Below the pieces are notes generated by a model, which had not been told where the DNA came from, searched no databases, and saw nothing but the letters and a program-made list of their open reading frames with translations. A program made the position numbers and the translations under genes. From positions 1-38,549 of the forward strand of contig CAYIBV010000001.1 in assembly GCA_964361725.1 (NCBI GenBank): a stretch of 38,549 nt of DNA, in the 5' to 3' direction. Positions 19,082-34,413 of the stretch are shown piece by piece (position 1 is the first letter of the stretch; each line of letters starts with the position of its first letter). Source of the stretch: an uncultured Methanosarcinales archaeon. GTDB lineage: Archaea; Nanobdellota; Nanobdellia; Woesearchaeales; GW2011-AR9.

Positions 19082-19091
19082 ATATTCTACG

Positions 19092-20000
19092 ATGACACAT
19101 GATGACCTCTGGCGCGAATGGACACGAAAAGGCATCGATGCATTGGCCGTATTTGATGTAGATCCTCATGATTATTATACGTTCACTACTGCTCTTCTCC
19201 ATCCTGATACTCTCCCCGATGATTTCCTTCGCTGGATGGGAACACAAGACCAAAAACTCAAAGAGAACCTTAAAGGGGAATATCGCAACCTGTCCCGAGA
19301 ATTCCATCCCGATATGTTACAAAGATTTTCTTCGGAACTGATAGGCCAAGCCACAAAAGTCTTTACTAACGTAACAACAGTATATGAAGTTCTCATTGAT
19401 CCTCAACGGTACGAAGTCATACCACACGACACAGTACCACCAACATCTCCTATGATGGAATACGTGCAGAGTTTACACGCTACCGGCTTGCGCATTCGCG
19501 ACCACCCCGCGCGGCGTGATGTGGAATTAATGCTGGCAAAAAAAAACATGACTCTTGAACTTCGTACTATCACTGATCCCACTCCCGCTACACAACAACA
19601 ACCTTTCCCTTCACCAGACAGAGAGAGAGATCAACGAGAAGCTGCTGAGGCACGTGCTGCTGCTGACGCGGCAAGAGCACAAGCAGAAGATTATAAAACA
19701 CGATGGCAACGATGCTCCAGCATTCTTTCCCAATATGAAATTCTCGGCAGCCCGGAGGAAGTCATTCGCCTTCCTAAACTTATAGAACAACTACGGGAAA
19801 TGGGCACTCTTCGCGCTGCTTTGCAACAAGTACAAACTGAACTGGATGCAGTACAACTTCAGGCAGAAGAGCGAGAAGCAGCCATTGCCTTATTCGCAGA
19901 ACTCACCAGTGGAAGAACAAGAACACCCCCCTACGGTTTTTTCTCTAGTGATCCAGAACAAGCGGCAATCCGGCTGAGAGCTATTCTTAAAAGAGTCTAG
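19092..20000 (+). CDS. J-domain protein with C-terminal coiled coil (group B, copy 1)
   Basis: ATG at 19092, 10 nt after the upstream stop. LKGEYRNLSREFHPDMLQRF...TKVFTNVTTVYEVLIDPQRYE matches J-domain helices II-III, including HPD (19305-19313). The C-terminus contains YEILGSPEEV followed by coiled coil. Confidence 0.6.
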   Translation: MTHDDLWREWTRKGIDALAVFDVDPHDYYTFTTALLHPDTLPDDFLRWMGTQDQKLKENLKGEYRNLSREFHPDMLQRFSSELIGQATKVFTNVTTVYEVLIDPQRYEVIPHDTVPPTSPMMEYVQSLHATGLRIRDHPARRDVELMLAKKNMTLELRTITDPTPATQQQPFPSPDRERDQREAAEARAAADAARAQAEDYKTRWQRCSSILSQYEILGSPEEVIRLPKLIEQLREMGTLRAALQQVQTELDAVQLQAEEREAAIALFAELTSGRTRTPPYGFFSSDPEQAAIRLRAILKRV

Positions 20001-21875: not shown

Positions 21876-23006
21876 ATGGACACTTTACCGAACCCTTTAT
21901 CAATGGCAATTGAACAATACCAAAGACGAGCATTGCAATCCAGCATGGATTATCAGGCATTATCAACCCAACCAGACGATGCTTCTTCCACTCTTCCCCT
22001 TGACCATTACAGGACACGATTCCAAGAAGCAGTAGAAAGCACTCTCACAGAATTGAAATATTGTACGGCCGTCCTTCAGGATGCCAGCAACGGTCAACAT
22101 GCTGATCTTTTGCAAGGCGAATTTGCTGATGAAGAATCACCTCTGCATATTGCAATTAAAGATACGCTCCATACCGCGAAGCAAAGATATGAGCACTTAG
22201 CATCAGTTCAGGGAGTGGTATCAGATCTCGCTTCCGGAACTGCCCCGGCAGCTGTGCGGGAACAGACTTTAGGAGGATACATTGCGAGTATTACTGGAGA
22301 ACGAGACAGCGCACGGGATAATTTCGACACTCTTAATGTATTATATCATTCCATTGTTCCTTCAGAGAGTACTCCTGATCCCGAGGGAGAACGTCGTGCT
22401 GTAGGAGAATTAGAAAGAGCAACCGGATCTGTGGAAGAAGGAGTCTCAGATTTGGTACGAAGATATCAGGGTTTACAAAGAGAATTAGCAGAATTGCAAG
22501 GAACATTAGCACAATCACGCCAAGAATATGAAACTCTGGAAAGAATACATGGAGAGACAGAAGATGAACTTTCTGGAAAGAAAAGCGACTTAGAAACTGC
22601 TCTGGAACGAGAACATTCCTTGCAAAAGCAACTTGCCGACGTAGAGACAAGTTATACAACCCTCAACGGAGATTATGATACATTACATGGTGTTCATAGC
22701 AGCCTTACTGATATGCATACACAGTTAACGGCAGTGCAGGGGCAGTTACGAAGAGAACACGATACTTTACAGGGAGATTACCGTCAACAATCAGCAGACT
22801 ATGTGTTGGAACAGGCGCGAACACAATCTTTAGAGCAACAGCTTGCTGCCGCCGAACAGCGCATTACAAGGATGACCGAGCAACAAGCTGTTCTGCGAAG
22901 TACGAACACCAAATTGCTGGAAAAGAAACTGGCCGCCGAGCGCGCCAGAGCAGCACAAGCAGCATCTATTGCCAACATCTTGGATAATATTCCTCAAAAG
23001 GGATAA
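21876..23006 (+). CDS. long coiled-coil protein (group A, copy 2)
   Basis: 376 aa. The C-terminal roughly 200 aa are charged heptad-like helix (LQRELAELQGTLAQSRQEYETLERIHGETEDEL...). It has the same position and orientation relative to its partner as 17687-19081. Confidence 0.6.
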   Translation: MDTLPNPLSMAIEQYQRRALQSSMDYQALSTQPDDASSTLPLDHYRTRFQEAVESTLTELKYCTAVLQDASNGQHADLLQGEFADEESPLHIAIKDTLHTAKQRYEHLASVQGVVSDLASGTAPAAVREQTLGGYIASITGERDSARDNFDTLNVLYHSIVPSESTPDPEGERRAVGELERATGSVEEGVSDLVRRYQGLQRELAELQGTLAQSRQEYETLERIHGETEDELSGKKSDLETALEREHSLQKQLADVETSYTTLNGDYDTLHGVHSSLTDMHTQLTAVQGQLRREHDTLQGDYRQQSADYVLEQARTQSLEQQLAAAEQRITRMTEQQAVLRSTNTKLLEKKLAAERARAAQAASIANILDNIPQKG

Positions 23007-23079
23007 TTATCCCTCCCTCAAAAATACTTGCCTACAAAAAATGGTGTACTGTGAATGAAGATGAACACACTACCACAAC

Positions 23080-24366
23080 ATGACTCAGTTAATCACTGTC
23101 CAGACTGCACGCGTCAATTTATTACAAGTTTTCGATCTTGATGCTACTCAGTACTTTCTGCCAGAAACCTCTTCTTTTCGTTCTGTTGAAGATGCAGCAC
23201 AGGGGACATACAAGCAGGAAACAGAACGATTTCTGAGAGATATCACTGCCCAATATCATGGCCTTCGCGCTGTGTTAAGTCCTCAGGCCAATGAATCTTT
23301 CCCTGCATCAGTACAACAAGAAGCGGCGGATCTTCTGCATCAGGTGGAAATAGCATACAAAGTATTAACAGACAGAAGAAATCTTGATGTAGTATTTGAA
23401 CCCCATCAAAAGTCCTATTCTTTTCTTTTAGCATGGTATGTACAAGAACTCAGAGAGACGCCGGCAGAATGGAGATCCCCAGCGTTATGCAGAAAACTGA
23501 CCATATACTTTGAAAAAAGATCACTGGTAGAAGAAGTGCACCGTGCTGCTTCAAAGAGTGATGATTCACCACAGCCAGCACAGCCCGCACATGCAGAGTC
23601 CATAAATCCACAAAGCCATGATTCTCTTGTAGAAGAATTACAGAGTGCACTCCACCATCAGGCACTCCAGACAGAAAGAAATGGAGGCTACCTGCAAGGT
23701 CTTATTGACAGTCAGGAAGTACGATATATGTTTCACCATGCTCTCGAAACCAGCCTTCGAAAAGGAAGAGGACAAGAAGTATCTATTCAATTTCTTCAAG
23801 ACTCTTTTCTTCGCCAGCGGAAGGAAATCAATCGCATTCGAGAAGAAGAACAACAAGTGAGAACACAATTAGACGCCTATCGTGCTTTGGGAACACCTGC
23901 TTCTATTCAGGAACGCGTTCAAGAACAACAAGCACGCCTCGTAGAACTACTACAACAAAAACGTGAATGGAGTGCCCGGTTTGCCGCAGCAGAAAGAACA
24001 GCCGCCAGTACTAACGCAGAATTACAACAGCTGCGGGGAGATCGGGAACTTCTCAGAAAATATCGTGCATTAGGATCACCAGAAAGCCTCGCGGAAATGA
24101 AACGAGAATATGAACCTCTTCAGGGAGAAATGGAAACTCTTACAGAACGAGTACTGATCGCTGAAGCAATTGCAGAAGAAGCGCAAACGCTGTTATCAGT
24201 AGCGGTACAACGTACTGAACAGGCTGAGTATAAAGAACAATTAATGTTGAAGCTTCGTCCTTCCGGAAGATGGATTCCCCCGGCTGTCGCTCCCCGCGTA
24301 CGGAGCGTTACCAGACAATTACAGGGCATAGATCGATTACTTCGTGCTGTACTGGAAGAAGAATAA
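23080..24366 (+). CDS. degenerate J-like domain protein with coiled coil (group B, copy 2)
   Basis: N-terminal LLQVFDLDATQYF...AQYHGLRAVLSPQAN...VEIAYKVLTDRRN aligns by eye to the J-domain of 19092-20000, but HPD is replaced by SPQ (23278-23286). Two YRALG(T/S)P motifs match YEILGSPE in the paralog. Confidence 0.55.
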   Translation: MTQLITVQTARVNLLQVFDLDATQYFLPETSSFRSVEDAAQGTYKQETERFLRDITAQYHGLRAVLSPQANESFPASVQQEAADLLHQVEIAYKVLTDRRNLDVVFEPHQKSYSFLLAWYVQELRETPAEWRSPALCRKLTIYFEKRSLVEEVHRAASKSDDSPQPAQPAHAESINPQSHDSLVEELQSALHHQALQTERNGGYLQGLIDSQEVRYMFHHALETSLRKGRGQEVSIQFLQDSFLRQRKEINRIREEEQQVRTQLDAYRALGTPASIQERVQEQQARLVELLQQKREWSARFAAAERTAASTNAELQQLRGDRELLRKYRALGSPESLAEMKREYEPLQGEMETLTERVLIAEAIAEEAQTLLSVAVQRTEQAEYKEQLMLKLRPSGRWIPPAVAPRVRSVTRQLQGIDRLLRAVLEEE

Positions 24367-24750: not shown

Positions 24751-24933
24751 ATATGAAAGACGCAACTATTTTGCTTAATTATTTGCGTCCTTCAGTATAC
24801 ATACTATCTCTGGAGGCAAAAGCCAAGAGGTGAGTTTGACATTCTACATGGAGTAAATATTTATATACTCTAAGTTTCTTTTCTGACTATATAATAAAGA
24901 GGGAAATTTTCCTCAAAAAGAGTTGGTTTTTGT

Positions 24934-26670
24934 ATGGCGCAAGGACAAGGTGGAGGCACCGCCAAAGTAGTACTAATTATATTTATCTTAGTTATTCTAG
25001 GTTTAGTAGGCTTCCTGGGATACAAACAAGGCTGGTTTACCAAACAAACGTTTACAGACCTGTGGAAGATTCTTCAAGTCAAAGAATTTTGGATCAATGT
25101 AGGCATCCTTGCAGGAATTGGGTTATTCATCGGCTACTTTGTCCCTCCATTTAAAGACACCCTCAGAGGAAAAGGAGACGACAAGATGGCTGCATATATT
25201 CTGCTTTTCCTTATTCTTGCCGGTTCCATTCTCGCCGCATACAAGATGGGAAACCAGCTCCTGTATGATTATCCTTTGATTCATGATTTCTTTTTTGACG
25301 CCCCTGCACCCGGAGGAAACTTCACCTACAATCCTCTCATCAACGTCGCTATCTTTTGGATTTTCATTTGTTTTGTTCTTCCTTGGTATGAACCCATTAA
25401 GAAACTGACACACAGTTCTGGGGGACAGTCTAATACCGCATTTTATACCATAGCCCTCATCATCAGCGTGGTCATCGCCTCCAAACTCGGAGCAGTAGGT
25501 GTTTGGGAGAACCAAACGTTCTTAGATGCTGAACACGTCCTTGTGGGTGAACGAGTAACCGTCGCTGATCCCCTCGGTGGGCATACCGGATCGTATCAAG
25601 CAACAGCGAAAGGAGTAACAAAAACACAATATGGCATTCTCAAATTTGAAGTGACCACAGGAGGGAAAACAGTATATCCTCTTCCCGTTCTCATCATCGT
25701 CTACGTCCTCCTCTCATTAATATTAGCGTACTACGGCGGTCAACTCGCGCAAAGTGGTTTGGGTGTGCTGGGAAAAGGGGGAAAAGATGTTATCTTAATC
25801 ATTTTCGCCGGCATGGCCGCCAACAGCGGCACTGATCTGAGTTCCGTCATCTGGCTGGCATATTTAGGATTCTTCTTCGCCGTAAAAAGCATGCTTGATA
25901 AAGTAAGTGTTATCCAGAATGAAACGTTTAAGAAATATTTTCCCCTGATGGGCGCCTTTGTCGCCGCAGAACTGTTGGCAGATGTTATTAATCCATTAAA
26001 ACCAATGGGACCACCTATCTTTGAAGGGGATCCCATCTACAAAATCGCTATGGGCACACTTTCAGGAATCGTCATTGCTTTCTTCTTAGGTATGGGAAAA
26101 GGAATATTTGGTCATCTCATGAGAACCAAAGGAAAAACTCAACTCTGTAAAAAGTGTCATTCTGTGTGTACAATAGAAGCAGGAGGAAAAACAGTTTGTC
26201 CTACCTGCAGTTACACTTGCCCAAAATGTGGTATGCGCGGTGTGTCGCAGGGAATCAAAATTATCTGCGCTAACCCTACTTGTGAAAGTGCCGGACAAGA
26301 ATTTTCTGTTCCCATCGAAACAGAAGTCATCAGCGGCTTTGAAAGCTGGGGCGTACGTCTCGTAGAAAAAATATCGCCCTCTAAGAGAGCTGCACAAGCT
26401 GCCAATGAAGAAGAACGAAAAAGGGCAGAACAAGCGCTCGCTGATCTCACAACAGCTCGTGGAGGTGCCGAACTCTTAAATCTGCAGACAAACGCAAAAC
26501 GTATCGTACGCCGTATCAAAGGATTACGAACGTTACTCACCTCAGCGAGAGCTGCTGACAAAGTAACCGTAGAATCGCAACTTCAAGCGTTGTTAGACCA
26601 ACTGGAAGATATTAACGCAAAGATCAAAAAGAAAGGTGGAGAGGAAATAAATGAATCTACAGAGGTATAA
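24934..26670 (+). CDS. polytopic membrane protein with C-terminal zinc ribbons and coiled-coil tail
   Basis: About 8-9 hydrophobic segments. These are followed by CKKCHSVCTIEAGGKTVCPTCSYTCPKCGMRGVSQGIKIICANPTCESAG (several CxxC knuckles) and then a charged helical tail. Confidence 0.6.
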   Translation: MAQGQGGGTAKVVLIIFILVILGLVGFLGYKQGWFTKQTFTDLWKILQVKEFWINVGILAGIGLFIGYFVPPFKDTLRGKGDDKMAAYILLFLILAGSILAAYKMGNQLLYDYPLIHDFFFDAPAPGGNFTYNPLINVAIFWIFICFVLPWYEPIKKLTHSSGGQSNTAFYTIALIISVVIASKLGAVGVWENQTFLDAEHVLVGERVTVADPLGGHTGSYQATAKGVTKTQYGILKFEVTTGGKTVYPLPVLIIVYVLLSLILAYYGGQLAQSGLGVLGKGGKDVILIIFAGMAANSGTDLSSVIWLAYLGFFFAVKSMLDKVSVIQNETFKKYFPLMGAFVAAELLADVINPLKPMGPPIFEGDPIYKIAMGTLSGIVIAFFLGMGKGIFGHLMRTKGKTQLCKKCHSVCTIEAGGKTVCPTCSYTCPKCGMRGVSQGIKIICANPTCESAGQEFSVPIETEVISGFESWGVRLVEKISPSKRAAQAANEEERKRAEQALADLTTARGGAELLNLQTNAKRIVRRIKGLRTLLTSARAADKVTVESQLQALLDQLEDINAKIKKKGGEEINESTEV

Positions 26671-26675
26671 AAACC

Positions 26676-26825
26676 ATGAACCGAGCGACTATTAAACAAA
26701 ACGTGGAACAGAACCTTGCTTCCAACAGAGCGTTACTGACTCAACTCAAAGCAGAATTAGGAGAAGATATCTACACCCGTCTCCTTGCTTCCCTTCCAGA
26801 ACAGAAACGGAGGTTCCTGCAATGA
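26676..26825 (+). CDS. small helical protein (49 aa, below the ORF-track cutoff)
   Basis: Translates MNRATIKQNVEQNLASNRALLTQLKAELGEDIYTRLLASLPEQKRRFLQ. GAGGT lies about 9 nt upstream. The stop forms an ATGA overlap with the next gene. Confidence 0.45.
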   Translation: MNRATIKQNVEQNLASNRALLTQLKAELGEDIYTRLLASLPEQKRRFLQ

Positions 26826-27907
26826 CCCTTGACTCTGCAGCGACCAAAGTAGTGAACTTATATGGCTTTCTGGCAGAACTACAAGACAGATTCAACCAAG
26901 ATCCTGATGCCGCATTAAAGTTATTCCTCGACAACAAAGGAACAATCTTGGAAACCCTGAAACATAACGATCGGGTTGCCGCTTTCTTCTTAGAACGAGT
27001 CAATTTCGAAGAAGTAAAGAATTTTCACAACCGTAAAAAAGCCATCCTCACTTTTGCCACAGAAATTCCTTCTCTCACCTCTCCTCAACAATTACAGCAG
27101 CGCACGGAAGCGTTCCTTGCGTTCATCAAAGATGAAGCGTTCACGCAAAAGATTCGTCATCTTCTCGCCGGCATTGCCAAATATCCGGAAGAACTGAAAT
27201 GGATGCAGCAACTGGAAATACAGCTTGCTACGTTAGAACAACAGTGGAATGACCCTAATGCCCATCCCGCAGAACAAACCTCGGCAATGTTCAAAGCATT
27301 ACATACTGAAATCCCCGAACGCCTGCGCACGGAATTTAACGATCCCCCCATGGCTCAATACATTGAAGAGTACCTGAACCATAACGAGGAACACTTCCAG
27401 CCCATTCCCCGTCCCGGGCCATTAAAAGTCCTCCTGATCCGTATCATCGAAGCCCTGCAGAGGCCGGAAATGCAGCAGGGACGATTCGTGCAGGCAAAGA
27501 CCGCACTGCTACAAGAAATAACACGAGAACAGGCAGAATTACAGAAACATCAAGTTAAAGTAATTGACAGTATCAAATCAAACACGCAGCGACTCCTTCA
27601 ACAGTTAGAAGTAGTGATGGGTGATTTGTACGAACAAGCGGCAGCGGAAGGAAACCTTGCCGGGTTATACGTTTCGTTACTTGCCCTCCTTGCCGATAAA
27701 ATCCATATCAACGCCGCCATCCTGCAGGAACTGCAAGTCAACCCCGATGATGCCACTGCAGAACCGCGCGTGGCTTCATATCTGGAACAATATCTTACAT
27801 TGGTAAAAGAAACAGATAAACTGCTTGGCCATATCAAAACCATGGGAAAAGTCGTGGTGAACAGAGAAGAATTAGGAAAGAAGTCATTAAAGAGGATAAA
27901 AGTATAA
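26822..27907 (+). CDS. all-helical soluble protein of unknown function (361 aa)
   Basis: Long ORF coupled by an ATGA overlap to the upstream small ORF. There are no TM segments and no motif I can name. Confidence 0.55.
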   Translation: MTLDSAATKVVNLYGFLAELQDRFNQDPDAALKLFLDNKGTILETLKHNDRVAAFFLERVNFEEVKNFHNRKKAILTFATEIPSLTSPQQLQQRTEAFLAFIKDEAFTQKIRHLLAGIAKYPEELKWMQQLEIQLATLEQQWNDPNAHPAEQTSAMFKALHTEIPERLRTEFNDPPMAQYIEEYLNHNEEHFQPIPRPGPLKVLLIRIIEALQRPEMQQGRFVQAKTALLQEITREQAELQKHQVKVIDSIKSNTQRLLQQLEVVMGDLYEQAAAEGNLAGLYVSLLALLADKIHINAAILQELQVNPDDATAEPRVASYLEQYLTLVKETDKLLGHIKTMGKVVVNREELGKKSLKRIKV

Positions 27908-27948
27908 CTCTACAAAGAAGATAAAAGAAAGTATAACCATAAACAAAC

Positions 27949-29754
27949 ATGAACAAACAAACAATAATGATTTGTATGGTACTTTTTCTGTTAATAGTTC
28001 CCTCTGTCATAGCCGCCCCGTTTGATTTCCTCAACAACATCCGCGTGGGCAGTACGGGCTTTGGGGCTTATGACCGGCATAAAGACATCCTCGATTTTGG
28101 TATCTTCTTTATCTTGTTCTTAGCGGTAACATGGCTCTCCATCCGCTCGTTCTATTCAGAGAAAGAACAACGAAATCCCGCGCTGGCTATTGCCATCGTT
28201 GTAGCGATCGCTTTGGCCATCGCCGCATTAAAAGCAGGATTAAGTCCTTCGTTTGCGGGCCCATTTATGAAATACGTCCTGTTCTTTCTGGGAGTGGTGT
28301 TGCTGTACTTGATATTTGTCAAACTCTTCCACGTGGAAACTGCCGGAGGAAGGATCCTCGTCTTTATTCTCGCTCTTCTCTTGTTATGGCTGTTATTCAA
28401 CCTTGCCAACTTTAGTTTTGAACGATCACGGATCGATCTTCCTAGTGGAGGAGGGGCATGGGAAAAAACCAAAGACTTCTTTCGCGGACTGACAAAAGCC
28501 CCTACGAGGACTATCAGTGTAGAAGGAGAAGAAGAGGGTGAAGAAGTAGAACTGGAAGAAAAGCAAAAAGAAGGGCCGAGTATTGCTGACCAAGCCAGCA
28601 AGAAAGCAAGCGACATCTGGAGTTCTATCACTGGTTTCTTCAAAAAGAAATGCGAATCAGACGCTGAATGCAATGGTGGCAGTTGTAAAGTGAGTACAGA
28701 TGGTAAAACAAAATCATGCGTAGAATGTACGTCTGATACGCAGTGTAAAGACAACAAAGTATGTGACTTAAAAGAAAATGAATGTGTTGAAGGGACTCAA
28801 GAGAAAACAGAAGAAACGAAACTAGAGGAAGAAGAAAAATGTACCACCAATGAAGACTGTTCTTCCGACCAGTATTGTGATACTGCTACGAAAATATGTG
28901 TGGTCAATACCATAACTAAAACTGGATGTACCACAGATAATGAATGTAGTGATACAGAAACATGTGATACCGCAACAAAGACATGTGTGCCAATACCTGC
29001 CGCTCCCACTAAAAAAGAATGTACTACCTCTCGTGAATGCCCTCCAGAAAAACCAGCTTGTAATTCTGGTGAGTGCATGGAAGGTGAGTGTGGTACAGAG
29101 TTAATCTGTCTTCCTGAAAAACCCATTTGTATCTGGGAAAACGCAGAAAAAACAAAAACAACATGTGTTCAGTGTATAAAAAACGAAAACTGCCCTTCCG
29201 GTTCAATTTGTGATAGTAAAACGTCTACTTGTATCAGTAGTCAGCCAACACAAATTAAACCAGAGGAAATAGAGGGATACACGCTCTATCCCACATTCGA
29301 TTTACGTGGACCAGCCATTTTTACTGCCACCTCTTATGCAGAATGTGCCAGTCAATGTAATGGAATGGATGAATGTGCCGCTTTTGTCTGGGTAAGAACA
29401 GACAATAAATGCTATGGCAAAAACACTAAAATAGTACGAGAAAATATCCCTCAAAATCCAAACACAGATTTGTATAAAAAGCAAACAGGATTCTTTCATT
29501 CTTTAGCCCAGAATGGGGGTACAATTGGTTTAATTGCCGGAGGCGTACTTCTCCTCTTTGTCTTAGTGGTTATAGGACGATCAGTATATAACAGAAGAGC
29601 TGGCGGAAACAGTTCATACAGAAATAAAGCAGAGTTCACGGCAGAACTCCGCACTACACTCCATGATCTTGAACAAGAAGTAGGAAACCACATGACAGAC
29701 CAGTTTGAGCTCTATGACCGGTTCCTCAACAATTTAAAAAGAGGTGGCTCATGA
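27949..29754 (+). CDS. membrane protein with seven 4-Cys repeats, PAN/Apple-like module and C-terminal TM anchor
   Basis: Signal-like N-terminus followed by about 5 TM segments and an acidic linker. Seven C-x5-C-x4-6-C-x4-12-C units lie at 28651-29232. ECASQCNGMDECAAFVWVRTDNKCYGK is PAN/Apple-like. The final TM is followed by the tail RRAGGNSSYRNK. Confidence 0.6.
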   Translation: MNKQTIMICMVLFLLIVPSVIAAPFDFLNNIRVGSTGFGAYDRHKDILDFGIFFILFLAVTWLSIRSFYSEKEQRNPALAIAIVVAIALAIAALKAGLSPSFAGPFMKYVLFFLGVVLLYLIFVKLFHVETAGGRILVFILALLLLWLLFNLANFSFERSRIDLPSGGGAWEKTKDFFRGLTKAPTRTISVEGEEEGEEVELEEKQKEGPSIADQASKKASDIWSSITGFFKKKCESDAECNGGSCKVSTDGKTKSCVECTSDTQCKDNKVCDLKENECVEGTQEKTEETKLEEEEKCTTNEDCSSDQYCDTATKICVVNTITKTGCTTDNECSDTETCDTATKTCVPIPAAPTKKECTTSRECPPEKPACNSGECMEGECGTELICLPEKPICIWENAEKTKTTCVQCIKNENCPSGSICDSKTSTCISSQPTQIKPEEIEGYTLYPTFDLRGPAIFTATSYAECASQCNGMDECAAFVWVRTDNKCYGKNTKIVRENIPQNPNTDLYKKQTGFFHSLAQNGGTIGLIAGGVLLLFVLVVIGRSVYNRRAGGNSSYRNKAEFTAELRTTLHDLEQEVGNHMTDQFELYDRFLNNLKRGGS

Positions 29755-30122
29755 CGAGAGATGTGGGAAGTCTTCATCCTTCCGAAGCGTTAAAGCTTCA
29801 GGCGTTGTTTGAGTTAGATGAATATGAGTTATGGGCACGGTACGACGCGTACGCAGCAGAACTAAACAGGAGCGGATTGCACTCTGCAGACATGTTTGTA
29901 GGGTTTATTTTAGAGTTCAGAAATTGGCATGAGAAGATGATTGCCATCCTCCAGAAACTCTACGTCCTCCTCCAGGATAAATATGCCAAAGAATCAAAAC
30001 ATGACTTTACATCAAATCTCGCAGAGATTGAAAGTCTGCTCCATCAGCTGGAAGGAAAAGAAGAGATCAGTGATTTTAAATATAGGTTGGAACATCTTTA
30101 CACGCAACTATCTAGAGTTTAG
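29751..30122 (+). CDS. small helical protein, partner of the Cys-repeat protein (copy 1)
   Basis: ATGA overlap with the upstream gene. RYDAYAAELNRSGL...EFRNWHEK aligns by eye with RCSAYSTELQKKSL...EYKHWLEQ of 31949-32419. Confidence 0.55.
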   Translation: MTRDVGSLHPSEALKLQALFELDEYELWARYDAYAAELNRSGLHSADMFVGFILEFRNWHEKMIAILQKLYVLLQDKYAKESKHDFTSNLAEIESLLHQLEGKEEISDFKYRLEHLYTQLSRV

Positions 30123-30140
30123 ATGTAGATAATCTTAAAT

Positions 30141-30175
30141 GATAATAACATTAATAAACCTCTTCCTCTTTTTAT
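30141..30175 (+). repeat. direct repeat, left copy (contains a TATA-like box for the MNT gene)
   Basis: GATAATAACATTAATAAACCTCTTCCTCTTTTTAT. It shares GATAA, the exact 12-mer TTAATAAACCTC and TTTTTAT with 30991-31020. Confidence 0.5.
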
Positions 30176-30181
30176 AACTTT

Positions 30182-30577
30182 ATGAATATCAATAGAACAG
30201 CGATAACACGCATTGCACAAAAGCACCATCTTCGTCTTCTTGTTCTTTTTGGCTCCCATGCCACGGGGAAAACTCACCCCAAAAGCGATATTGACTTTGC
30301 GTTTTATGCTTTACATCCGGTGAATGAACAACAATTGTACGATGATCTTGCCGCCCTCTTCAAACGTGAAGACATAGATGTCCTAAATCTCGTTACTACC
30401 CACAATCACTACCTCCGCTTTAAGATACTTCATACAGGAAAAGTGGTGTATGAAGAAAAATACGGTGTATACGACCGCATGAAAGGGGAAAGTTATTTTG
30501 ATTACATCGATTTCAGGAAATATTATGATCTTCATGATAAGCTTCTTAGCCAGAGAATCGCTGGGATGAGCATCTAA
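30182..30577 (+). CDS. mntA: MNT-type nucleotidyltransferase (antitoxin of a HepT/MNT pair)
   Basis: LLVLFGSHATGKTHPKSDIDFAF matches the GS-x(n)-DxD minimal nucleotidyltransferase motif. Confidence 0.7.
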   Translation: MNINRTAITRIAQKHHLRLLVLFGSHATGKTHPKSDIDFAFYALHPVNEQQLYDDLAALFKREDIDVLNLVTTHNHYLRFKILHTGKVVYEEKYGVYDRMKGESYFDYIDFRKYYDLHDKLLSQRIAGMSI

Positions 30578-30578
30578 C

Positions 30579-30992
30579 ATGGATAAAACACTCTTACAGC
30601 AAAAACTTGAACTTCTTGCAGATCTCTTGGAAAAAATAAAACAGATTTTGCTGGAACACGACAAAAATCAAAAATTGCAAGAATTCCTCCTCTACGCCGC
30701 TGAAAAAAAAGCAGAAGAGATTGTAGAATTAGCCGTTACTATTAACCAAGAAATTCTGGGAAGTAAAGGCAAAATTGCGTTGAGTTATTATGAAACATTT
30801 AGCCATCTTTCACGATTCTCTCTGTTTACAGAAGAAGAGCTAAGACAGCTTGCCAGCACTGCTGGTTTCCGTAACCGTCTTGCCCATGAGTATCTCGAAA
30901 TAGATCGCCACATTGCTCTTCGTACCATGAAAAACATGATGCCTTTATATTCTCTGTATCTTCAAAGAATTAAAAAATTCAGCTCAAAGTGA
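30579..30992 (+). CDS. hepT: HepT/DUF86 HEPN-domain toxin
   Basis: FRNRLAHEYLEID contains the R-x4-H HEPN motif. The gene starts 1 nt after the MNT stop. Confidence 0.7.
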   Translation: MDKTLLQQKLELLADLLEKIKQILLEHDKNQKLQEFLLYAAEKKAEEIVELAVTINQEILGSKGKIALSYYETFSHLSRFSLFTEEELRQLASTAGFRNRLAHEYLEIDRHIALRTMKNMMPLYSLYLQRIKKFSSK

Positions 30993-31020
30993 TAACTTTA
31001 ATAAACCTCATTATTTTTAT
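30991..31020 (+). repeat. direct repeat, right copy (contains a TATA-like box for the 31029 gene)
   Basis: GATAACTTTAATAAACCTCATTATTTTTAT. See the left copy at 30141-30175. Confidence 0.5.
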
Positions 31021-31028
31021 GGAGTATA

Positions 31029-31949
31029 ATGGCAGAACAACAGGGTGGTAAGTCTGGATTCACGCGATTTCTGATATGGTTCTTCATAATACTCTTACTC
31101 CTCTACCTCCTTCTCGGACCGATCTTTAACATTGTCTCCCGCTGGAAACAGACAGACAAATGGTCCTTTGAAGGATCTGACCTCAACCCCATATCTTCGG
31201 TAAAATCAATCTCAAAAATCACAGAAACATTTACCGGCAAGTCCTGTAAAACGAATGATGATTGTACCACAGAAGAGGGAAAACCAAACTGCGTGGAAAA
31301 TAAATGCTGGGAATGCGGAACGGATGAACAATGTGCTGGCAACACTAAAGGAACCATCTGTTTAGAGAAAGAATGTGTGCAGTGTGGAACCGTCAAAGAC
31401 TGTCCAGAAGGCAACTTTGCCTGTGATGACAATAAATGTGTGGTGTGTACGGAAGACGAACAGTGTGTAGAAAACAACAAAGGAAAAGCCTGCGTGGAAA
31501 ACAAATGCGTTCTTTGCGATGATGATGAAGATTGTGGAGCAGGCTCAGTATGTACCAATAAAAATACCTGCGTAGAATGCATTAAAGATTCTGATTGCAA
31601 GGACAAGCCAGATAATAAAAAATGTCTCTCTGACAAAAACATCTGCGCACAATGCCGCACCGACAGTGACTGCGGTGGGGGGGCATGTATTCTCACCGAC
31701 AACACCTGTAAAGAATGCCGTGACAATACACAATGTAAAGATGGTTTTGAATGTGAAAACAACAAGTGTGAAGAAACTACGTTTCATTCTTTTGGAGGTT
31801 GGAAGACCATTGGCATTGGAGCGGGTCTTCTCATTGCGGGCATTGTTCTCTTCTTTAAATTTGGAAGAACTGGCGGAAAAAGTTCTAGAACACCTCGTCA
31901 CGAAGCTGCCCCTGCCGCTCCCTCGCGTGCAAGAGAGGAGGAGTACTGA
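31029..31949 (+). CDS. bitopic membrane protein with eight 4-Cys repeats (paralog of the 27949-29754 ectodomain)
   Basis: N-terminal TM segment. Eight units of C-x5-C-x4-8-C-x4-6-C-x2 lie at 31245-31769. The C-terminal TM is followed by the tail GRTGGKSSRTPRHE, similar to the RRAGGNSS tail of the paralog. Confidence 0.6.
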   Translation: MAEQQGGKSGFTRFLIWFFIILLLLYLLLGPIFNIVSRWKQTDKWSFEGSDLNPISSVKSISKITETFTGKSCKTNDDCTTEEGKPNCVENKCWECGTDEQCAGNTKGTICLEKECVQCGTVKDCPEGNFACDDNKCVVCTEDEQCVENNKGKACVENKCVLCDDDEDCGAGSVCTNKNTCVECIKDSDCKDKPDNKKCLSDKNICAQCRTDSDCGGGACILTDNTCKECRDNTQCKDGFECENNKCEETTFHSFGGWKTIGIGAGLLIAGIVLFFKFGRTGGKSSRTPRHEAAPAAPSRAREEEY

Positions 31950-32419
31950 TGACAGAGCTCAGCGCCTTTGCCGAAAAAGAAATTTTATCATTCAACCTCC
32001 TTTCCAAACTCTCAGAGGAACAGATTAAAAGAAGATGCTCTGCGTACAGCACGGAATTGCAAAAGAAAAGCCTGCAGCCTCTCTCGTATGCCCTTACTGC
32101 CATCGAATACAAACACTGGCTGGAGCAGGCAGAACAATGGTTTAACGCAGTAGGAAAGTATTATTCACATCATGATATTATCACACAACTCATTAAAACC
32201 ATCCGTCTGGGCGTCACACAAAACGTTCAGGCAAAACAAACGCTGGATCAGTACGCTCTCCTCGTCAAACTCGTCGCCATTTCCGATCAGGGCCATCATC
32301 TTCTTCAGAACCAGAACCTAAGCGTATTCACTTGTATGATCTGCCATCAGGTATTTACCGATGTGCTGAATATGCCGCAGATTCCGGGTTGTACTTCACA
32401 GCAACAGAAAGCAGCGTAA
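31949..32419 (+). CDS. small helical protein, partner of the Cys-repeat protein (copy 2)
   Basis: TGATG overlap with the upstream gene. By-eye paralogy to 29751-30122. Confidence 0.55.
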   Translation: MTELSAFAEKEILSFNLLSKLSEEQIKRRCSAYSTELQKKSLQPLSYALTAIEYKHWLEQAEQWFNAVGKYYSHHDIITQLIKTIRLGVTQNVQAKQTLDQYALLVKLVAISDQGHHLLQNQNLSVFTCMICHQVFTDVLNMPQIPGCTSQQQKAA

Positions 32420-32574: not shown

Positions 32575-32766
32575 ATGACCACTGAAGTTAAAACAGCTCA
32601 TGATGATTTGGAGACATACCAAAAGCGTATCGAATTACTGATAGGTGCCCGTTTCTCTGAGTCCAAAAACATACAATCTGCAGTGGAAACACAAGACAAC
32701 ATCCGGAAAAAAATCGGCGCTTGGGAAGGCACAAAAGAGATCCGACGATGGCGTCAGCAGAATTAA
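32575..32766 (+). CDS. VapB-like antitoxin candidate
   Basis: 63-aa ORF overlapping the PIN gene start. The C-terminal KKIGAWEGTKEIRRWR resembles archaeal VapB tails. AACATTTAAATAG lies about 25 nt upstream. Confidence 0.45.
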   Translation: MTTEVKTAHDDLETYQKRIELLIGARFSESKNIQSAVETQDNIRKKIGAWEGTKEIRRWRQQN

Positions 32767-33176
32767 AATCTGTGATAGACTCTTCTGTAATCATAAAATG
32801 GTTCTGTGAGGAAGAAGATACCCCAAAAGCATTAGCCCTGCGAGAAAATTATTGTCAAGGTAACGCGGAAATAGTCTTCCCTGATTTATCTCTCTATGAA
32901 GTTGCTAACGCTCTCAGGCACAATAAATCCATTACAGAAAACGATGTTAAAATAGCTGTGGAAAGCCTCATTAAGATGAATGTAGAAATTGTCGTCCCTA
33001 CTATGGATGTGATGAAATCAGCGATTAACTTTGCTTTCCGCTACAATATTACGGTATACGATGCTTATTTCCTCGCTCTTGCACAAACTTTACGATTCAC
33101 GTTGATTACTGCTGATGAATCATTCTATACCAAAGTTAAAAGCATTCCTTTTGTCACATTACTAAAAGACATCTAA
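32748..33176 (+). CDS. vapC: PIN-domain ribonuclease (VapC-type toxin)
   Basis: ATG at 32748. The acidic quartet is in PIN order: VIDSS, LYEV, TVYDAYF, ITADE. Confidence 0.7.
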   Translation: MASAELKSVIDSSVIIKWFCEEEDTPKALALRENYCQGNAEIVFPDLSLYEVANALRHNKSITENDVKIAVESLIKMNVEIVVPTMDVMKSAINFAFRYNITVYDAYFLALAQTLRFTLITADESFYTKVKSIPFVTLLKDI

Positions 33177-33194: not shown

Positions 33195-33743
33195 TTATAA
33201 ATTTTCCAAATACTTCAAGAATTTATCGTACTCCTGCAATTCTACTTCAAAGGACTGAATCCATTTAATCGTCTCACCCACTTCCTGCACTAACGCCGCA
33301 GTATCCTTGCGCAATTGATCAAATAATGGTTGGTTGGGCTTTTTCTCATACACCTCTAACTTTGTCTCCAACTTCTCCAGATTATCACGCATCGTTCCCG
33401 TAGTCCGGGATAATTCTTTTGCAAAATAACTGAGGGCAATATGCATCCCCTGTTTCAACTTCTCTAAAGAAACTCTAAGATTAGCCGGAAGAACCGCTTC
33501 TAACTCTTCAATATCTTTCTCTAAATCAATTTGATTGATGCGCCGCTCCGTCCGCCCGATGCGGGTGCGGAATAAGCGTATAGCTGCTTTAATATCTTGT
33601 TTAGACTGCCGGGGATTCTTTGCTATATCGATCTGCAACTTGAGAAGATCTTCTTTCTCCTCCTGAAGATACTTGTATTCCGCCGCAGCCTGACCGATAG
33701 CTTTTACCGCATCCTCACGTAAATCTTTAACTTTTCTTCCCAT
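33195..33743 (-). CDS. all-helical coiled-coil protein (182 aa)
   Basis: ORF with ATG start and charged heptad-like sequence throughout. No motif I can name. Confidence 0.5.
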   Translation of the reverse strand: MGRKVKDLREDAVKAIGQAAAEYKYLQEEKEDLLKLQIDIAKNPRQSKQDIKAAIRLFRTRIGRTERRINQIDLEKDIEELEAVLPANLRVSLEKLKQGMHIALSYFAKELSRTTGTMRDNLEKLETKLEVYEKKPNQPLFDQLRKDTAALVQEVGETIKWIQSFEVELQEYDKFLKYLENL

Positions 33744-33945: not shown

Positions 33946-34413
33946 ATGACGAATGAAATGCAAATAAAACCTGGCTTTGAGCCTATATATTGGTTACGAG
34001 AAGTGAATTATGACCAATGGGGTGTACATAAACGCTTTGGGAAAATCGTGAAAATAGTTTCGGGAACTGTTCTCTATGGTTGGCCTCTCTTCGATGATGT
34101 GGCTATTATTCCCAAAACAGAAGTAAGAACTCCCACTCTTAGGACAACAATAAAGAGTGAGAGCGGAACATCAGTCAAAATGGATTGGGAGTTCTCTTTT
34201 AGAGTAACAAATGCTCGTAAGTTCATGGAAGAGGCGCCAGTGTTGTATCAATCGTACACCATTACAGACGCGGTGAGAATCATCAAAGAAGTTATAAGAG
34301 ATTATGAGGAAGATAATTTGTTACAGAAACTTTACAGACAACTGGAAGACGAAGTTACATTAAAAATATCCCCACAATCAAGAGCTATGGGATGGAAACA
34401 AAATTGTGGTTAA
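33946..34413 (+). CDS. SPFH/band-7-like domain protein lacking a TM anchor
   Basis: WLREVNYDQWGVHKRFGKIVKIVSGTVLYGWPLFDDVAIIPKTEVRT follows the SPFH N-terminal pattern (GVv.rfGk...pG.....P..d.v..v..r). Confidence 0.45.
   Translation: MTNEMQIKPGFEPIYWLREVNYDQWGVHKRFGKIVKIVSGTVLYGWPLFDDVAIIPKTEVRTPTLRTTIKSESGTSVKMDWEFSFRVTNARKFMEEAPVLYQSYTITDAVRIIKEVIRDYEEDNLLQKLYRQLEDEVTLKISPQSRAMGWKQNCG

What the first reader, a model, noticed from the sequence alone, without database searches (positions are those of the whole stretch)
24934..32419. Operon of membrane/zinc-ribbon, helical and cysteine-repeat surface proteins with a duplicated terminal cassette: candidate undescribed envelope or cell-contact system
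Seven co-directional genes are involved. They are a roughly 9-TM protein ending in several CxxC zinc knuckles and a coiled-coil tail (24934-26670), a 49-aa helical ORF (26676-26825), a 361-aa helical protein (ATGA-coupled), a 601-aa multi-TM protein whose large loop carries seven 4-Cys repeats plus a PAN/Apple-like module, and a 123-aa helical protein (ATGA-coupled). After a toxin-antitoxin insert comes a second copy of the last two genes: a 306-aa bitopic protein with eight 4-Cys repeats and a 156-aa helical protein (TGATG-coupled). Both Cys-repeat proteins end with a TM segment followed by a similar short basic tail (RRAGGNSS / RTGGKSS). Each is translationally coupled to a paralogous small cytoplasmic helical protein. 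This suggests a tail-adaptor pairing that links an extracellular disulfide-rich module to cytoplasmic partners. None of these proteins shows an enzymatic motif.
Basis: partly seen in the sequence, partly recalled or inferred. Interest (0 to 1): 0.78.

Follow-up and report, generated by a model that had tools for sequence, protein, structure and literature searches.

The report
Conserved DPANN membrane cluster displaying variable surface proteins
A small symbiotic-type archaeon (DPANN, Woesearchaeota-like) keeps, always next to the same ribosomal gene, an undescribed set of membrane and helical proteins that seems to hold fast-changing adhesive surface proteins, which makes it a candidate for the unknown machinery these cells use to touch other cells.

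Summary
All seven ORFs, their overlaps, the 7 and 8 four-Cys repeats, the PAN module and the MntA/HepT insert are present as described.

The genes form a vertically inherited cluster. It lies between ribosomal protein genes L35Ae and S19e in at least seven divergent Woesearchaeota/Nanoarchaeia lineages (18–82% identity).

The conserved core is:
- a 10-TM protein with zinc ribbons and a coiled coil (p578)
- a 49-aa microprotein
- a 361-aa helical protein
- a 5-TM anchor domain carrying an ectodomain and a C-terminal TM
- a p156-like helical protein

The Cys repeats and the second cassette are not core features. In relatives the ectodomain is an acidic linker, multiple PAN domains, an OmpA-like domain or a glucosaminidase.

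No core protein matches Pfam, NCBIfam, PADLOC, PHROGs, or the PDB by sequence. The AlphaFold2 models of p578 and p361 (pLDDT 81 and 84) find no fold match. The p578 family has only 25 clusters among 1.84 billion representatives.

Best reading (about 0.5): a lineage-specific membrane platform that displays interchangeable, partner-cell-targeting ectodomains and couples them to cytoplasmic helical adaptors. Function is inferred, not shown.

The parts
24860..24870 (+). TATA-box-like element TTTATATACTC about 65-75 nt upstream of the p578 start. Probable promoter of the cluster.
   Evidence: The same TTATATACTC element lies upstream of the p578 orthologue in L001 and L003. Promoter function is inferred from archaeal promoter architecture and was not tested.
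24934..26670 (+). p578, a polytopic membrane protein. It has a 10-TM domain (nt 24934-26133) with a conserved extracellular beta-hairpin loop (aa ~190-247), two cytoplasmic zinc ribbons (nt 26134-26337) and a coiled-coil tail (nt 26338-26667).
   Evidence: ORF. AlphaFold2 model with pLDDT 80.7. Conserved motifs. Identity to L001 is 88% in the TM domain, 63% in the zinc ribbons and 26% in the coiled coil. The family has 25 representative clusters among 1.84 billion proteins. No Pfam, NCBIfam, PDB or BFVD match.
26676..26825 (+). p49, a conserved helical microprotein, always directly downstream of p578 and ATGA-coupled to p361.
   Evidence: Orthologues lie at the same position in L001, L002/L003, L006 (not called by annotators), L008, L011 and L013. 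A local HMM gives E 4e-5 to 6e-28 among 5977 ORFs.
26822..27907 (+). p361, an all-helical cytoplasmic protein. It has an N-terminal helical domain, a conserved P-x-P-R-P-G-P-L linker (aa 194-201) and a 92-residue helix with a hairpin.
   Evidence: Alignment of six lineages. AlphaFold2 model with pLDDT 84.2. No PDB fold or sequence match. NCBI names it a hypothetical protein.
27949..29754 (+). p601, an anchor-plus-display protein. It has a signal-like TM plus 4 TM forming the conserved N-domain (nt 27949-28428), an acidic linker, seven 4-Cys repeats (nt 28651-29232), a PAN/Apple module (nt 29287-29481), a C-terminal TM (nt 29521-29583) and a 56-aa cytoplasmic helical tail (nt 29584-29751).
   Evidence: The N-domain is 88% identical to L001 and 49% to L003. 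It is detected in all loci, including distant ones (L014 E 7e-14). The ectodomain differs in every lineage.
29751..30122 (+). p123, a small helical protein, ATGA-coupled to p601.
   Evidence: Orthologues in L001, L003 (219 aa), L009 (397 aa) and L013 (266 aa). Its N-terminal ~65 aa are weakly related to the p156 family.
30142..31021 (+). Inserted type VII toxin-antitoxin cassette: MntA 30182-30577 and HepT 30579-30992. It is bounded by direct repeats of the p306 upstream region (about 30142-30175 and 30989-31021). It is not part of the system.
   Evidence: Pfam Polbeta and HepT-like hits, NCBIfam MntA 75.4 bits. Absent from L001, where the p123 and p306 orthologues are adjacent. Repeat coordinates.
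31029..31949 (+). p306, a second and optional display protein. It has a conserved N-terminal TM (nt 31071-31136), a conserved juxtamembrane segment, eight 4-Cys repeats (nt 31245-31769), a C-terminal TM (nt 31803-31865) and a basic tail (nt 31866-31946).
   Evidence: Orthologues in L001, L003 (231 aa, 8 Cys) and L009 (476 aa). Absent in L011 and L013.
31949..32419 (+). p156, a small helical protein with a C-terminal HH...CxxC(H)...C motif (possible zinc knuckle). It overlaps the p306 stop codon by 1 nt.
   Evidence: Orthologues in L001, L003, L009, L011 and L013. It is present even where only one display protein exists, in L011 and L013.
33195..33743 (-). p182, a convergently transcribed helical protein with a conserved GRTERY motif. 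It closes the cluster in most lineages and is possibly associated with it.
   Evidence: 29-42% identical orthologues lie at the same position, between the cluster and S19e, in L003, L009, L011 and L013. No family or PDB match. Functional linkage is not shown.

Best explanation
This is a vertically inherited, lineage-specific membrane complex of Woesearchaeota-type DPANN archaea. Its job is to hold interchangeable, partner-cell-binding ectodomains on the cell surface and to couple them to a cytoplasmic helical scaffold.

Proposed working:
1. p601 inserts through its conserved 5-TM N-domain and its C-terminal TM. Its ectodomain (here a Cys-repeat stalk plus a PAN/Apple lectin-like module) is therefore a doubly anchored loop outside the cell. 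p306 does the same with one TM at each end.
2. The ectodomains bind envelope components (glycans or cell wall) of another cell.
3. The conserved TM modules dock onto the 10-TM hub p578, whose conserved extracellular beta-hairpin loop faces the juxtamembrane segments.
4. On the cytoplasmic side, the helical tails of the display proteins are bound by the small helical proteins p123 and p156. The zinc-ribbon and coiled-coil tail of p578, together with p49 and p361, forms a scaffold that clusters the complex into a contact site.

Shown: the genes, their conservation, their synteny, the domain content, the hypervariability of the ectodomains, and the absence of any known family.

Inferred: the topology, all protein-protein contacts, and the binding of a partner cell.
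For: Organism. It is a DPANN archaeon, with an archaeal gene set. An identical protein fragment is named 'Nanoarchaeota archaeon', and the relative L003 is Candidatus Woesearchaeota.

Synteny. The order L35Ae-p578-p49-p361-p601-like-small helical protein(s)-p182(-)-S19e recurs in L003, L009/L010, L011 and L013, and as far as the contig reaches in L001 and L006. In lineages with only 18-20% identity (L012, L014, L015/L016) a p578-like gene plus a helical gene (all four loci) plus a p601N-like gene (detected in L014-L016, not L012) still sit together, next to L35Ae in L014-L016 but not in L012.

Conservation pattern. TM modules are 88-90% identical between the window and L001. Ectodomain repeats are 52-67% identical, and the p578 coiled coil 26%.

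Ectodomain swapping on the same anchor:
- Cys repeats plus PAN in the window and in L009
- Cys repeats in L001, where the PAN region aligns (55% identity) but gave no Pfam PAN hit
- an acidic P/E/T linker with no Cys in L003
- CxDGxDNDxDG-type repeats in L011
- three or more PAN domains plus an OmpA-like domain in L013
- a glucosaminidase, PF01832, E 2.4e-11, in L016
 These are adhesion or cell-wall-targeting modules.

Topology. The orientation signals agree with the ectodomains being outside and the zinc ribbons inside.

Gene coupling. Overlaps and ribosome-binding sites indicate co-translation of each display protein with its helical partner.

Literature. Lineage-specific DPANN families are mostly unannotated and predicted to be membrane-bound or extracellular. 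Woesearchaeota and Pacearchaeota carry extracellular murein-degrading proteins that were proposed to attach to bacterial hosts (PMC8204110).
Against: There is no experimental or expression evidence, and no interaction could be modelled.

The positive-inside bias is weak for p601 and p306, and no dedicated topology predictor was available.

The cluster sits in a strongly conserved housekeeping neighbourhood. Conserved order alone therefore does not prove functional linkage, and a housekeeping envelope role is equally compatible with it.

No host is known for this organism.

p578 has a novel fold with conserved extracellular and cytoplasmic loops. It could be a transporter rather than a passive hub.

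A doubly anchored ectodomain is unusual for adhesins.
Confidence: 0.5

Rival explanations
1. The cluster is a housekeeping envelope module, not a partner-cell contact device. It builds, anchors or monitors the cell's own surface coat. Examples would be an S-layer-like or glycocalyx anchor, or a WSC-type envelope-integrity sensor that signals through the cytoplasmic tails to the helical proteins.
For: The cluster has a fixed position in a core-genome block among ribosomal protein genes in every lineage examined. Doubly membrane-anchored ectodomains suit a coat or a sensor better than a projecting adhesin. Acidic P/E/T-rich stalks such as the one in L003 are typical of surface-coat or sensor stalks; that comparison rests on my own knowledge. 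No ATPase or secretion component lies in the window's cluster.
Against: There is no similarity to any S-layer, PGF-CTERM/archaeosortase or known sensor family. Ectodomains such as OmpA-like and glucosaminidase target peptidoglycan, which the archaeon itself does not make, so they point to bacterial cells (PMC8204110). The extreme turnover of ectodomains is more typical of interaction interfaces than of a self-coat.
Confidence: 0.22
2. The cluster is a transport or membrane-remodelling machine. p578 would be a novel channel, transporter or scramblase, for example for uptake of lipids or metabolites. The display proteins would be accessory docking subunits and the helical proteins regulators.
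For: p578 is a 10-TM protein with strongly conserved intramembrane and loop motifs (PPFK, N-x-x-I-x-W, W-E, G-E-R, H-T-G-x-Y, A-A-N-x-G). Its TM domain is 88% identical to L001 while its tail is only 26% identical. In distant lineages an ATPase_2/AAA_14 plus wHTH gene overlaps the start of the p578-like gene. That DPANN archaea depend on partners for lipids and metabolites is general knowledge, also reflected in PMC8204110.
Against: No transporter family or fold match was found for p578 in Pfam, NCBIfam, PDB or BFVD. The only invariant residues across 21 homologues are a Gly and a Tyr, with no conserved charged intramembrane residues. No ATPase lies in the window's operon. The ATPase of distant loci carries a wHTH and looks regulatory.
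Confidence: 0.15
3. There is no system. The genes are unrelated lineage-specific hypothetical genes that stay adjacent only because the whole region is syntenic in this clade.
For: Flanking housekeeping genes (thermosome, SPP, DUF87 ATPase, L35Ae, S19e, L31e) keep the same order too. Synteny by itself is therefore weak evidence of function.
Against: Start/stop overlaps couple p49 to p361, p601 to p123 and p306 to p156. The p578-like, helical and p601N-like genes remain together at 18-20% identity, in genomes of 29-50% GC, while the surrounding genes differ. TA cassettes insert between transcription units but never break the coupled pairs. The TM-hairpin copy number is raised in both p578 and p601 of L013.
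Confidence: 0.08

Closest known systems
Myxococcus xanthus TraA/TraB outer-membrane-exchange receptor (PMC3325183, PMC3820747)
   Same: TraA is a polymorphic cell-surface receptor. It is built from a variable lectin-like recognition domain, a tandem Cys-rich repeat stalk and a C-terminal membrane-anchoring signal. Its partner TraB carries an OmpA domain. The Cys repeats of p306 and p601 hit the same repeat model (TIGR04201) and the repeat region of the TraA model. PAN plays the part of the lectin-like head. One relative, L013, has an OmpA-like domain.
   Different: The whole-protein TraA score is 29-36 bits against a cut-off of 750. There is no PA14 domain and no MYXO-CTERM. The proteins are anchored by TM helices at both ends. 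The organism is an archaeon with a single membrane. p578, p49, p361, p123 and p156 have no counterpart in TraAB. Membrane fusion or exchange is pure speculation here.
Large extracellular murein-lytic-transglycosylase proteins and 'module 98' hypothetical families of Woesearchaeota and Pacearchaeota (Castelle et al. 2021, PMC8204110)
   Same: They come from the same clades and are mostly unannotated membrane or extracellular families, proposed to mediate attachment to bacterial cell walls. The p601-like protein of L016 carries a peptidoglycan glucosaminidase as its ectodomain.
   Different: That paper describes single giant proteins with a transglycosylase domain. It does not describe this gene cluster or these families. 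The window's copies carry no lytic domain. Whether these families belong to module 98 was not checked, because the supplementary tables were not read.
Eukaryotic single-pass adhesion or sensor receptors with a cytoplasmic adaptor, such as integrin-talin or yeast Wsc1 (Cys-rich PAN-like WSC head, stalk, TM, short tail)
   Same: The logic is the same: a Cys-rich or lectin-like ectodomain, a stalk, a TM, a short cytoplasmic tail and a helical cytoplasmic adaptor.
   Different: This is an analogy only, drawn from my own knowledge and from the abstract of PMC9024836 seen. There is no sequence or fold relationship. Here there is an additional polytopic anchor domain and a 10-TM hub.
Giardia variant-specific surface proteins (abstracts)
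   Same: They have a Cys-rich repeat ectodomain, a single C-terminal TM and a very short conserved cytoplasmic tail, and the ectodomain is highly variable.
   Different: They are eukaryotic and have a different repeat type (CXXC). They have no operon partners, and no homology was detected.

Membership tests
TraA outer membrane exchange protein (NCBIfam NF033759) | Whole-protein score at or above the curated cut-off of 750 bits | tested here: not met
   p601 scores 29.3 bits and p306 scores 36.1 bits. The matches cover only the Cys-repeat region.
TraA outer membrane exchange protein (NCBIfam NF033759) | N-terminal PA14-like variable domain and a MYXO-CTERM sorting signal (PMC3325183) | tested here: not met
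   Neither a PA14 nor a MYXO-CTERM hit appears in Pfam or NCBIfam at E <= 0.1. The C-terminus is a TM followed by a 27-56-aa tail.
Myxo-type Cys-rich repeat (TIGR04201) | Repeat model score at or above the 25-bit cut-off | tested here: met
   p306 scores 45.4 bits over 3 stretches. p601 scores only 16.4 bits, below the cut-off. The regular C-x5-C-x4-8-C-x5-10-C units were counted.
PAN/Apple domain (Pfam PF00024) | Score at or above the gathering cut-off of 21.4 bits, with 4 conserved Cys | tested here: met
   p601 aa 447-511 scores 26.1 bits, E 7.9e-6. Four Cys lie at positions 466, 470, 476 and 488. Orthologues in L009 and L013 carry 2-3 or more PAN domains.
Archaeosortase/exosortase substrate system (PGF-CTERM, PEF-CTERM; ArtA) | A C-terminal tripartite sorting signal at the extreme C-terminus, plus a polytopic sortase with conserved Cys/Arg/His | tested here: not met
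   No Exosortase_EpsH, ArtA or x-CTERM hits. The tails extend 27-56 aa beyond the TM. The TM domain of p578 has no conserved Cys, and the only invariant residues are G205 and Y221.
Yip1 domain (Pfam PF04893) for the p601 N-domain | Score at or above the gathering cut-off of 28.6 bits, reproducible in orthologues | tested here: not met
   The score is 22.1 bits in the window only. The orthologues L001, L003 and L011 give other weak TM-family hits instead, namely Mntp, DUF2298 and DUF4401.
Known archaeal surface structures (S-layer proteins, type IV pilus/archaellum sets) and secretion ATPase systems | Any component matching the family models (pilin or prepilin peptidase, PilB/PilC-like, S-layer domains) | tested here: not met
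   No such hit for any cluster protein in Pfam or NCBIfam, in the window or in relatives. The PDB profile searches of the p578, p361, p156 and p182 families and the fold searches of the p578 and p361 models were also negative.
Anti-phage defence systems and phage proteins | A match to PADLOC or PHROGs models | tested here: not met
   Only coiled-coil noise was found.
Type VII toxin-antitoxin MntA/HepT (the insert only) | An adjacent nucleotidyltransferase antitoxin and HEPN RNase toxin, both passing the model cut-offs | tested here: met
   MntA scores 75.4 bits against a cut-off of 60. Pfam HepT-like scores 63.4 bits against 23.5, while NCBIfam HepT scores 53.8, just under its cut-off of 60.

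The most novel reading that the evidence does not exclude
The cluster encodes the structural core of the still-unidentified host-contact apparatus of Woesearchaeota-type DPANN archaea. It would be a TraAB-like recognition-and-exchange device. Hypervariable lectin, cell-wall-binding or lytic ectodomains would select and breach the partner's envelope. The novel 10-TM protein p578, with its cytoplasmic zinc-ribbon and coiled-coil scaffold, would form the membrane junction through which lipids or metabolites are acquired.
Probability: 0.15. Interest if true: 0.9.

Novelty: categorically new. Interest (0 to 1): 0.66.

Why it matters
How DPANN archaea recognise, hold and exploit partner cells is a central open question. 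For Woesearchaeota, which are among the most abundant DPANN in groundwater and sediments, no molecular component is known.

This cluster gives a concrete, conserved and easily recognisable gene set. It has a built-in specificity cassette, the swappable ectodomain, which could be used in several ways:
- to predict partner type, for example peptidoglycan-targeting domains pointing to bacterial hosts
- to design labelling probes for cryo-ET or FISH-based host identification
- to test by AF3 and biochemistry

It also adds at least five protein families and two apparently new folds (p578 and p361) to the catalogue of archaeal membrane biology.

Tried and rejected
- Pfam and NCBIfam on all cluster proteins in the window, and Pfam also on their relatives. 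Only PAN, the Cys repeats and the TA pair were recognised.
- PADLOC and PHROGs gave nothing, so this is not a defence system or a prophage.
- PDB profile searches of the p578, p361, p182 and p156 families gave only coiled-coil or zinc-finger noise.
- Foldseek of the AlphaFold2 models against the PDB (p578 and p361) and BFVD (p578) found no match at E < 0.1.
- I considered an archaeosortase-type sorting system because of the TM plus basic tail. I rejected it because there is no sortase signature and the tails are long (see the membership table).
- I considered homology of the p601 N-domain to Yip1. It is below the cut-off and not reproducible in orthologues.
- I considered homology between the p601 N-domain and p578. 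hhalign gives probability 36%, which is not convincing and probably reflects TM composition.
- I asked whether all the helical proteins are one family. p361, p182 and p156 are unrelated to each other (probability 0.4-3.5%). These comparisons serve as controls for the p123-p156 signal.
- I considered a functional link to the upstream DUF87/HerA ATPase. It is conserved in position, but so is the entire block, so no inference was made.
- Word-index homologue searches returned very few hits. The genome and metagenome contig scans found only the L003 lineage. The exhaustive HMM search was needed to find the family.
This was solved by obtaining protein ids through the listing of cluster members.
- Literature searches found no description of this cluster.

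Full report
**1. What is in the sequence**

The window is archaeal. It encodes a thermosome, HisRS, Cbf5, a presenilin-type SPP, and ribosomal proteins L35Ae, S19e, L31e and S3Ae. It holds no tRNA or Rfam hits.

A fragment 100% identical to p578 is deposited as 'MAG: hypothetical protein [Nanoarchaeota archaeon]'. The p361 and p156 proteins carry the same kind of name. The organism is therefore a DPANN archaeon of the Woesearchaeota/Nanoarchaeia type.

All seven ORFs of the finding exist as described:
- p49/p361 and p601/p123 overlap by ATGA. p306/p156 overlap by one base.
- The internal genes have GGAGG-type ribosome-binding sites.
- p601 has exactly seven 4-Cys units plus a 4-Cys PAN module. 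p306 has exactly eight 4-Cys units.
- PAN_1 passes its Pfam cut-off. The p306 repeats pass TIGR04201.
- The genes between p123 and p306 are a MntA/HepT type VII toxin-antitoxin pair.

**2. Corrections to the observation**

- The AlphaFold2 model of p578 (21-sequence alignment, pLDDT 80.7) has 10 TM helices. It also has a structured beta-hairpin loop between TM5 and TM6, two zinc ribbons (9 Cys) and a coiled coil of about 100 residues.
- With the zinc ribbons in the cytoplasm, the beta-hairpin loop is extracellular. The positive-inside count agrees: 9 of 67 residues inside against 5 of 92 outside.
- For p601 and p306 the bias is weak. However, the strongly basic segment after each C-terminal TM, the signal-like N-terminus and the extracellular nature of PAN all place the Cys modules outside. 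This topology is inferred, not measured.
- p123 and p156 are not similar by BLASTP (E 0.95). Profile comparisons align their N-terminal ~65 residues colinearly: hhalign E 3.5e-5 with probability 72% on 3-sequence profiles, and E 1e-3 with probability 21% on 5-6-sequence profiles. Reciprocal local HMM hits range from E 5e-5 to 0.05 among about 6000 ORFs. Unrelated helical families of the same cluster give probability 0.4-3.5%. An old paralogy is therefore plausible but not proven.
- p601 and p306 share the repeats and the C-terminal TM/tail region (E 2e-8), but not their N-termini.

**3. The cluster is a conserved unit**

p578 has only three word-index homologues. An exhaustive HMM search of 1.84 billion representative proteins finds 25 clusters, 11 of them below 1e-30. 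Looking up their contigs gave the following loci.

| Locus | Source | Gene order found |
|---|---|---|
| L001 | GCA_053533955.1 | All seven genes at 60-82% identity, directly after L35Ae, without the TA insert |
| L003 | Ca. Woesearchaeota RIFOXYD1_FULL_39_9.8 | All seven at 24-49% identity, plus a helical gene on the opposite strand orthologous to window 33195-33743 (p182) |
| L006 | GCA_053531655.1 | L35Ae-551-p49-344-643, then the contig ends |
| L009/L010 | ENA metagenome contig; GCA_964344245.1 | 578-35-371-1208-397-476-156-188(-)-S19e-L31e |
| L011 | GCA_053532155.1 | 572-49-374-553-185-179(-)-S19e |
| L013 | JGI metagenome contig | 839-49-378-1227-266-173-180(-)-HepT/MntA(-)-S19e |

Lineages with only 18-20% identity (L012, L014, L015/L016; GC 29-49%) still have a p578-like gene followed by a 378-520-aa helical gene. 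In L014-L016 a p601N-like membrane protein follows as well (E 7e-14 to 7e-4), and the cluster lies next to L35Ae. An ATPase_2/AAA_14 plus wHTH gene overlaps the start of the p578-like gene.

A TATA-like TTATATACTC element upstream of p578 is conserved in the window, L001 and L003.

**4. What is core and what is variable**

The core is p578, p49, p361, the 5-TM N-domain plus C-terminal TM of p601, and a p156-like protein. A p123-like protein and p182 are usually present as well.

The second display protein, p306, is optional. It is absent in L011 and L013.

Identity between the window and L001, by region:

| Region | Identity |
|---|---|
| TM modules | 88-90% |
| Cys repeats | 52-67% |
| PAN module | 55% |
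| p578 zinc ribbons | 63% |
| p578 coiled-coil tail | 26% |

Across lineages the ectodomain on the conserved anchor is replaced wholesale:

| Locus | Ectodomain on the p601-like anchor |
|---|---|
| Window, L009 | Cys repeats plus PAN (L009 also has fibronectin-like repeats) |
| L001 | Cys repeats; PAN region aligned (55% identity) but no Pfam PAN hit |
| L003 | Acidic P/E/T linker with no cysteines |
| L006 | Other Cys-rich modules |
| L011 | CxDGxDNDxDG-type repeats |
| L013 | Three or more PAN domains plus an OmpA-like domain (26.1 bits, just under the cut-off) |
| L016 | Glucosaminidase (PF01832, 44.8 bits, above the cut-off) |

**5. What it is not**

- None of the core proteins matches Pfam, NCBIfam, PADLOC or PHROGs.
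- None matches the PDB by profile search.
- The AlphaFold2 models of p578 and p361 (pLDDT 80.7 and 84.2) have no Foldseek match in the PDB. The p578 model has none in BFVD either (best E 0.1-0.18, TM <= 0.25).
- There is no sortase signature, no pilus or S-layer component, and no ATPase in the operon.
- Only G205 and Y221 are invariant across 21 p578 homologues. This argues against a classical catalytic site.

**6. Most likely mechanism**

The evidence best fits a conserved membrane platform that presents interchangeable ectodomains aimed at other cells, and that links them to a cytoplasmic helical scaffold. The full statement is in the Best explanation section.

The modules found on the anchor are PAN/Apple, Cys-rich stalks of the TraA type, an OmpA-like domain and a glucosaminidase. 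These are adhesion or cell-wall-targeting modules. Two of them target peptidoglycan, which points to bacteria. This agrees with the published proposal that small-genome Woesearchaeota and Pacearchaeota attach to bacterial cell walls through extracellular murein-degrading proteins, and with the observation that their lineage-specific families are mostly unannotated membrane or extracellular proteins (PMC8204110).

One observation hints at contact between the TM modules, though it rests on a single lineage. In L013 the p578 homologue matches in five stretches, and the p601 homologue shows two partial N-domain matches.

All protein-protein contacts, and the binding of a partner cell, are inferences.

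The rival explanations are a housekeeping coat or envelope sensor, a transporter or remodelling machine built around p578, and mere synteny. They are set out with their tests in the Rival explanations section.

**7. Comparison with known systems**

The nearest functional analogue is Myxococcus TraA/TraB: a variable lectin-like head, a Cys-repeat stalk, a C-terminal anchor and an OmpA partner (PMC3325183). Membership fails on every defining feature except the repeat type. The similarity is architectural. Other analogies are logical only, namely integrin-talin, the yeast Wsc1 sensor and Giardia VSPs.

**8. Novelty and score**

The core families are rare, unannotated and without sequence or fold relatives. 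The gene cluster has not been described in the literature I could search. I therefore rate it categorically new as a system.

I stress that the function is unproven and that lineage-specific hypothetical clusters are common in DPANN genomes. I score interest at 0.66. A DPANN specialist would want this lead, because it makes the host-contact question testable. The present evidence is comparative only.

Noticed in passing
window 30142-30175 and 30989-31021: The MntA/HepT cassette is bounded by a direct repeat of about 30 nt (GATAA..C(A/T)TTAATAAACCTC...TTTTTAT). This repeat is the TATA-like upstream region of p306, and L001 has one copy. The insertion therefore duplicated the promoter region, so both mntA and p306 keep one.
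   Followed up: partly
window 32575-33176; L013 17386-18349: A PIN-domain (VapC-like) gene lies at 32721-33176, with a small upstream ORF at 32575-32766. It sits between p156 and p182, where relatives have nothing. L013 has another MntA/HepT-type pair between p182 and S19e. The locus seems to be a hot spot for toxin-antitoxin insertions, which land between transcription units but not within coupled pairs.
   Followed up: partly
window 17687-20000 and 21876-24366: Four long coiled-coil or helical genes are lineage-specific additions to the conserved block. A 464-aa gene and a 344-aa DnaJ-like gene lie between SPP and the DUF87 ATPase. A 376-aa and a 428-aa gene lie between the DUF87 ATPase and L35Ae. 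The first pair also occurs in L001. The second pair is absent from L001, L006, L009, L011 and L013. Their function is unknown.
   Followed up: partly
window 33195-33743 (-): p182 is a 182-aa helical protein with an invariant G-R-T-E-R-Y-type motif. It is conserved at the same position, convergent to the cluster and before S19e, in L003, L009, L011 and L013. It has no family or PDB match and is unrelated to p361 and p156 by hhalign.
   Followed up: partly
window 24934-24960 and 31029-31055: p578 and p306 both begin with a similar N-terminal peptide, MAQGQGGGTAK and MAEQQGGKSGF. The motif M-A-x-G-Q-x-G is invariant among close p578 homologues and recurs in the p306 orthologues of L001 and L009. 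It may be a shared N-terminal processing or docking signal.
   Followed up: no
L013 8001-10520 and 11796-15479: The p578 homologue of L013 (839 aa) has several extra copies of the FW-x-N...PPFK TM hairpin, seen as five matched stretches. The p601 homologue of the same locus has a partial internal duplication of its N-terminal TM domain. This may be co-expansion of interacting TM modules, but it rests on one lineage only.
   Followed up: partly
L012 4402-5565, L014 6967-8004, L015 6901-8004 and L016 5905-7008: In the most distant lineages an archaeal ATPase_2/AAA_14 gene with a C-terminal winged helix (MarR/HTH_24-like) overlaps the start of the p578-like gene. In three of them the cluster is still next to L35Ae. 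No such gene is in the window's cluster. L003 has an unrelated-looking AAA gene on the opposite strand at that spot.
   Followed up: partly
L016 10070-11410: The p601-like anchor protein of a 29%-GC relative carries a peptidoglycan glucosaminidase domain (PF01832, E 2.4e-11) as its ectodomain. This suggests a bacterial target for that lineage.
   Followed up: yes
window 32294-32395 (p156 aa 116-149): p156 and its orthologues in L001, L009, L011 and L013 share a C-terminal HH-x10-12-C-x2-C-(H/N)-x14-18-C motif, a possible small zinc-binding knuckle. The L003 orthologue and the whole p123 family lack it.
   Followed up: partly
window 33946-34413: A short (155-aa) SPFH/Band 7 domain ORF lies between p182 and S19e. 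It covers only part of the domain model and has no TM segment, so it may be a truncated or degenerate copy.
   Followed up: no
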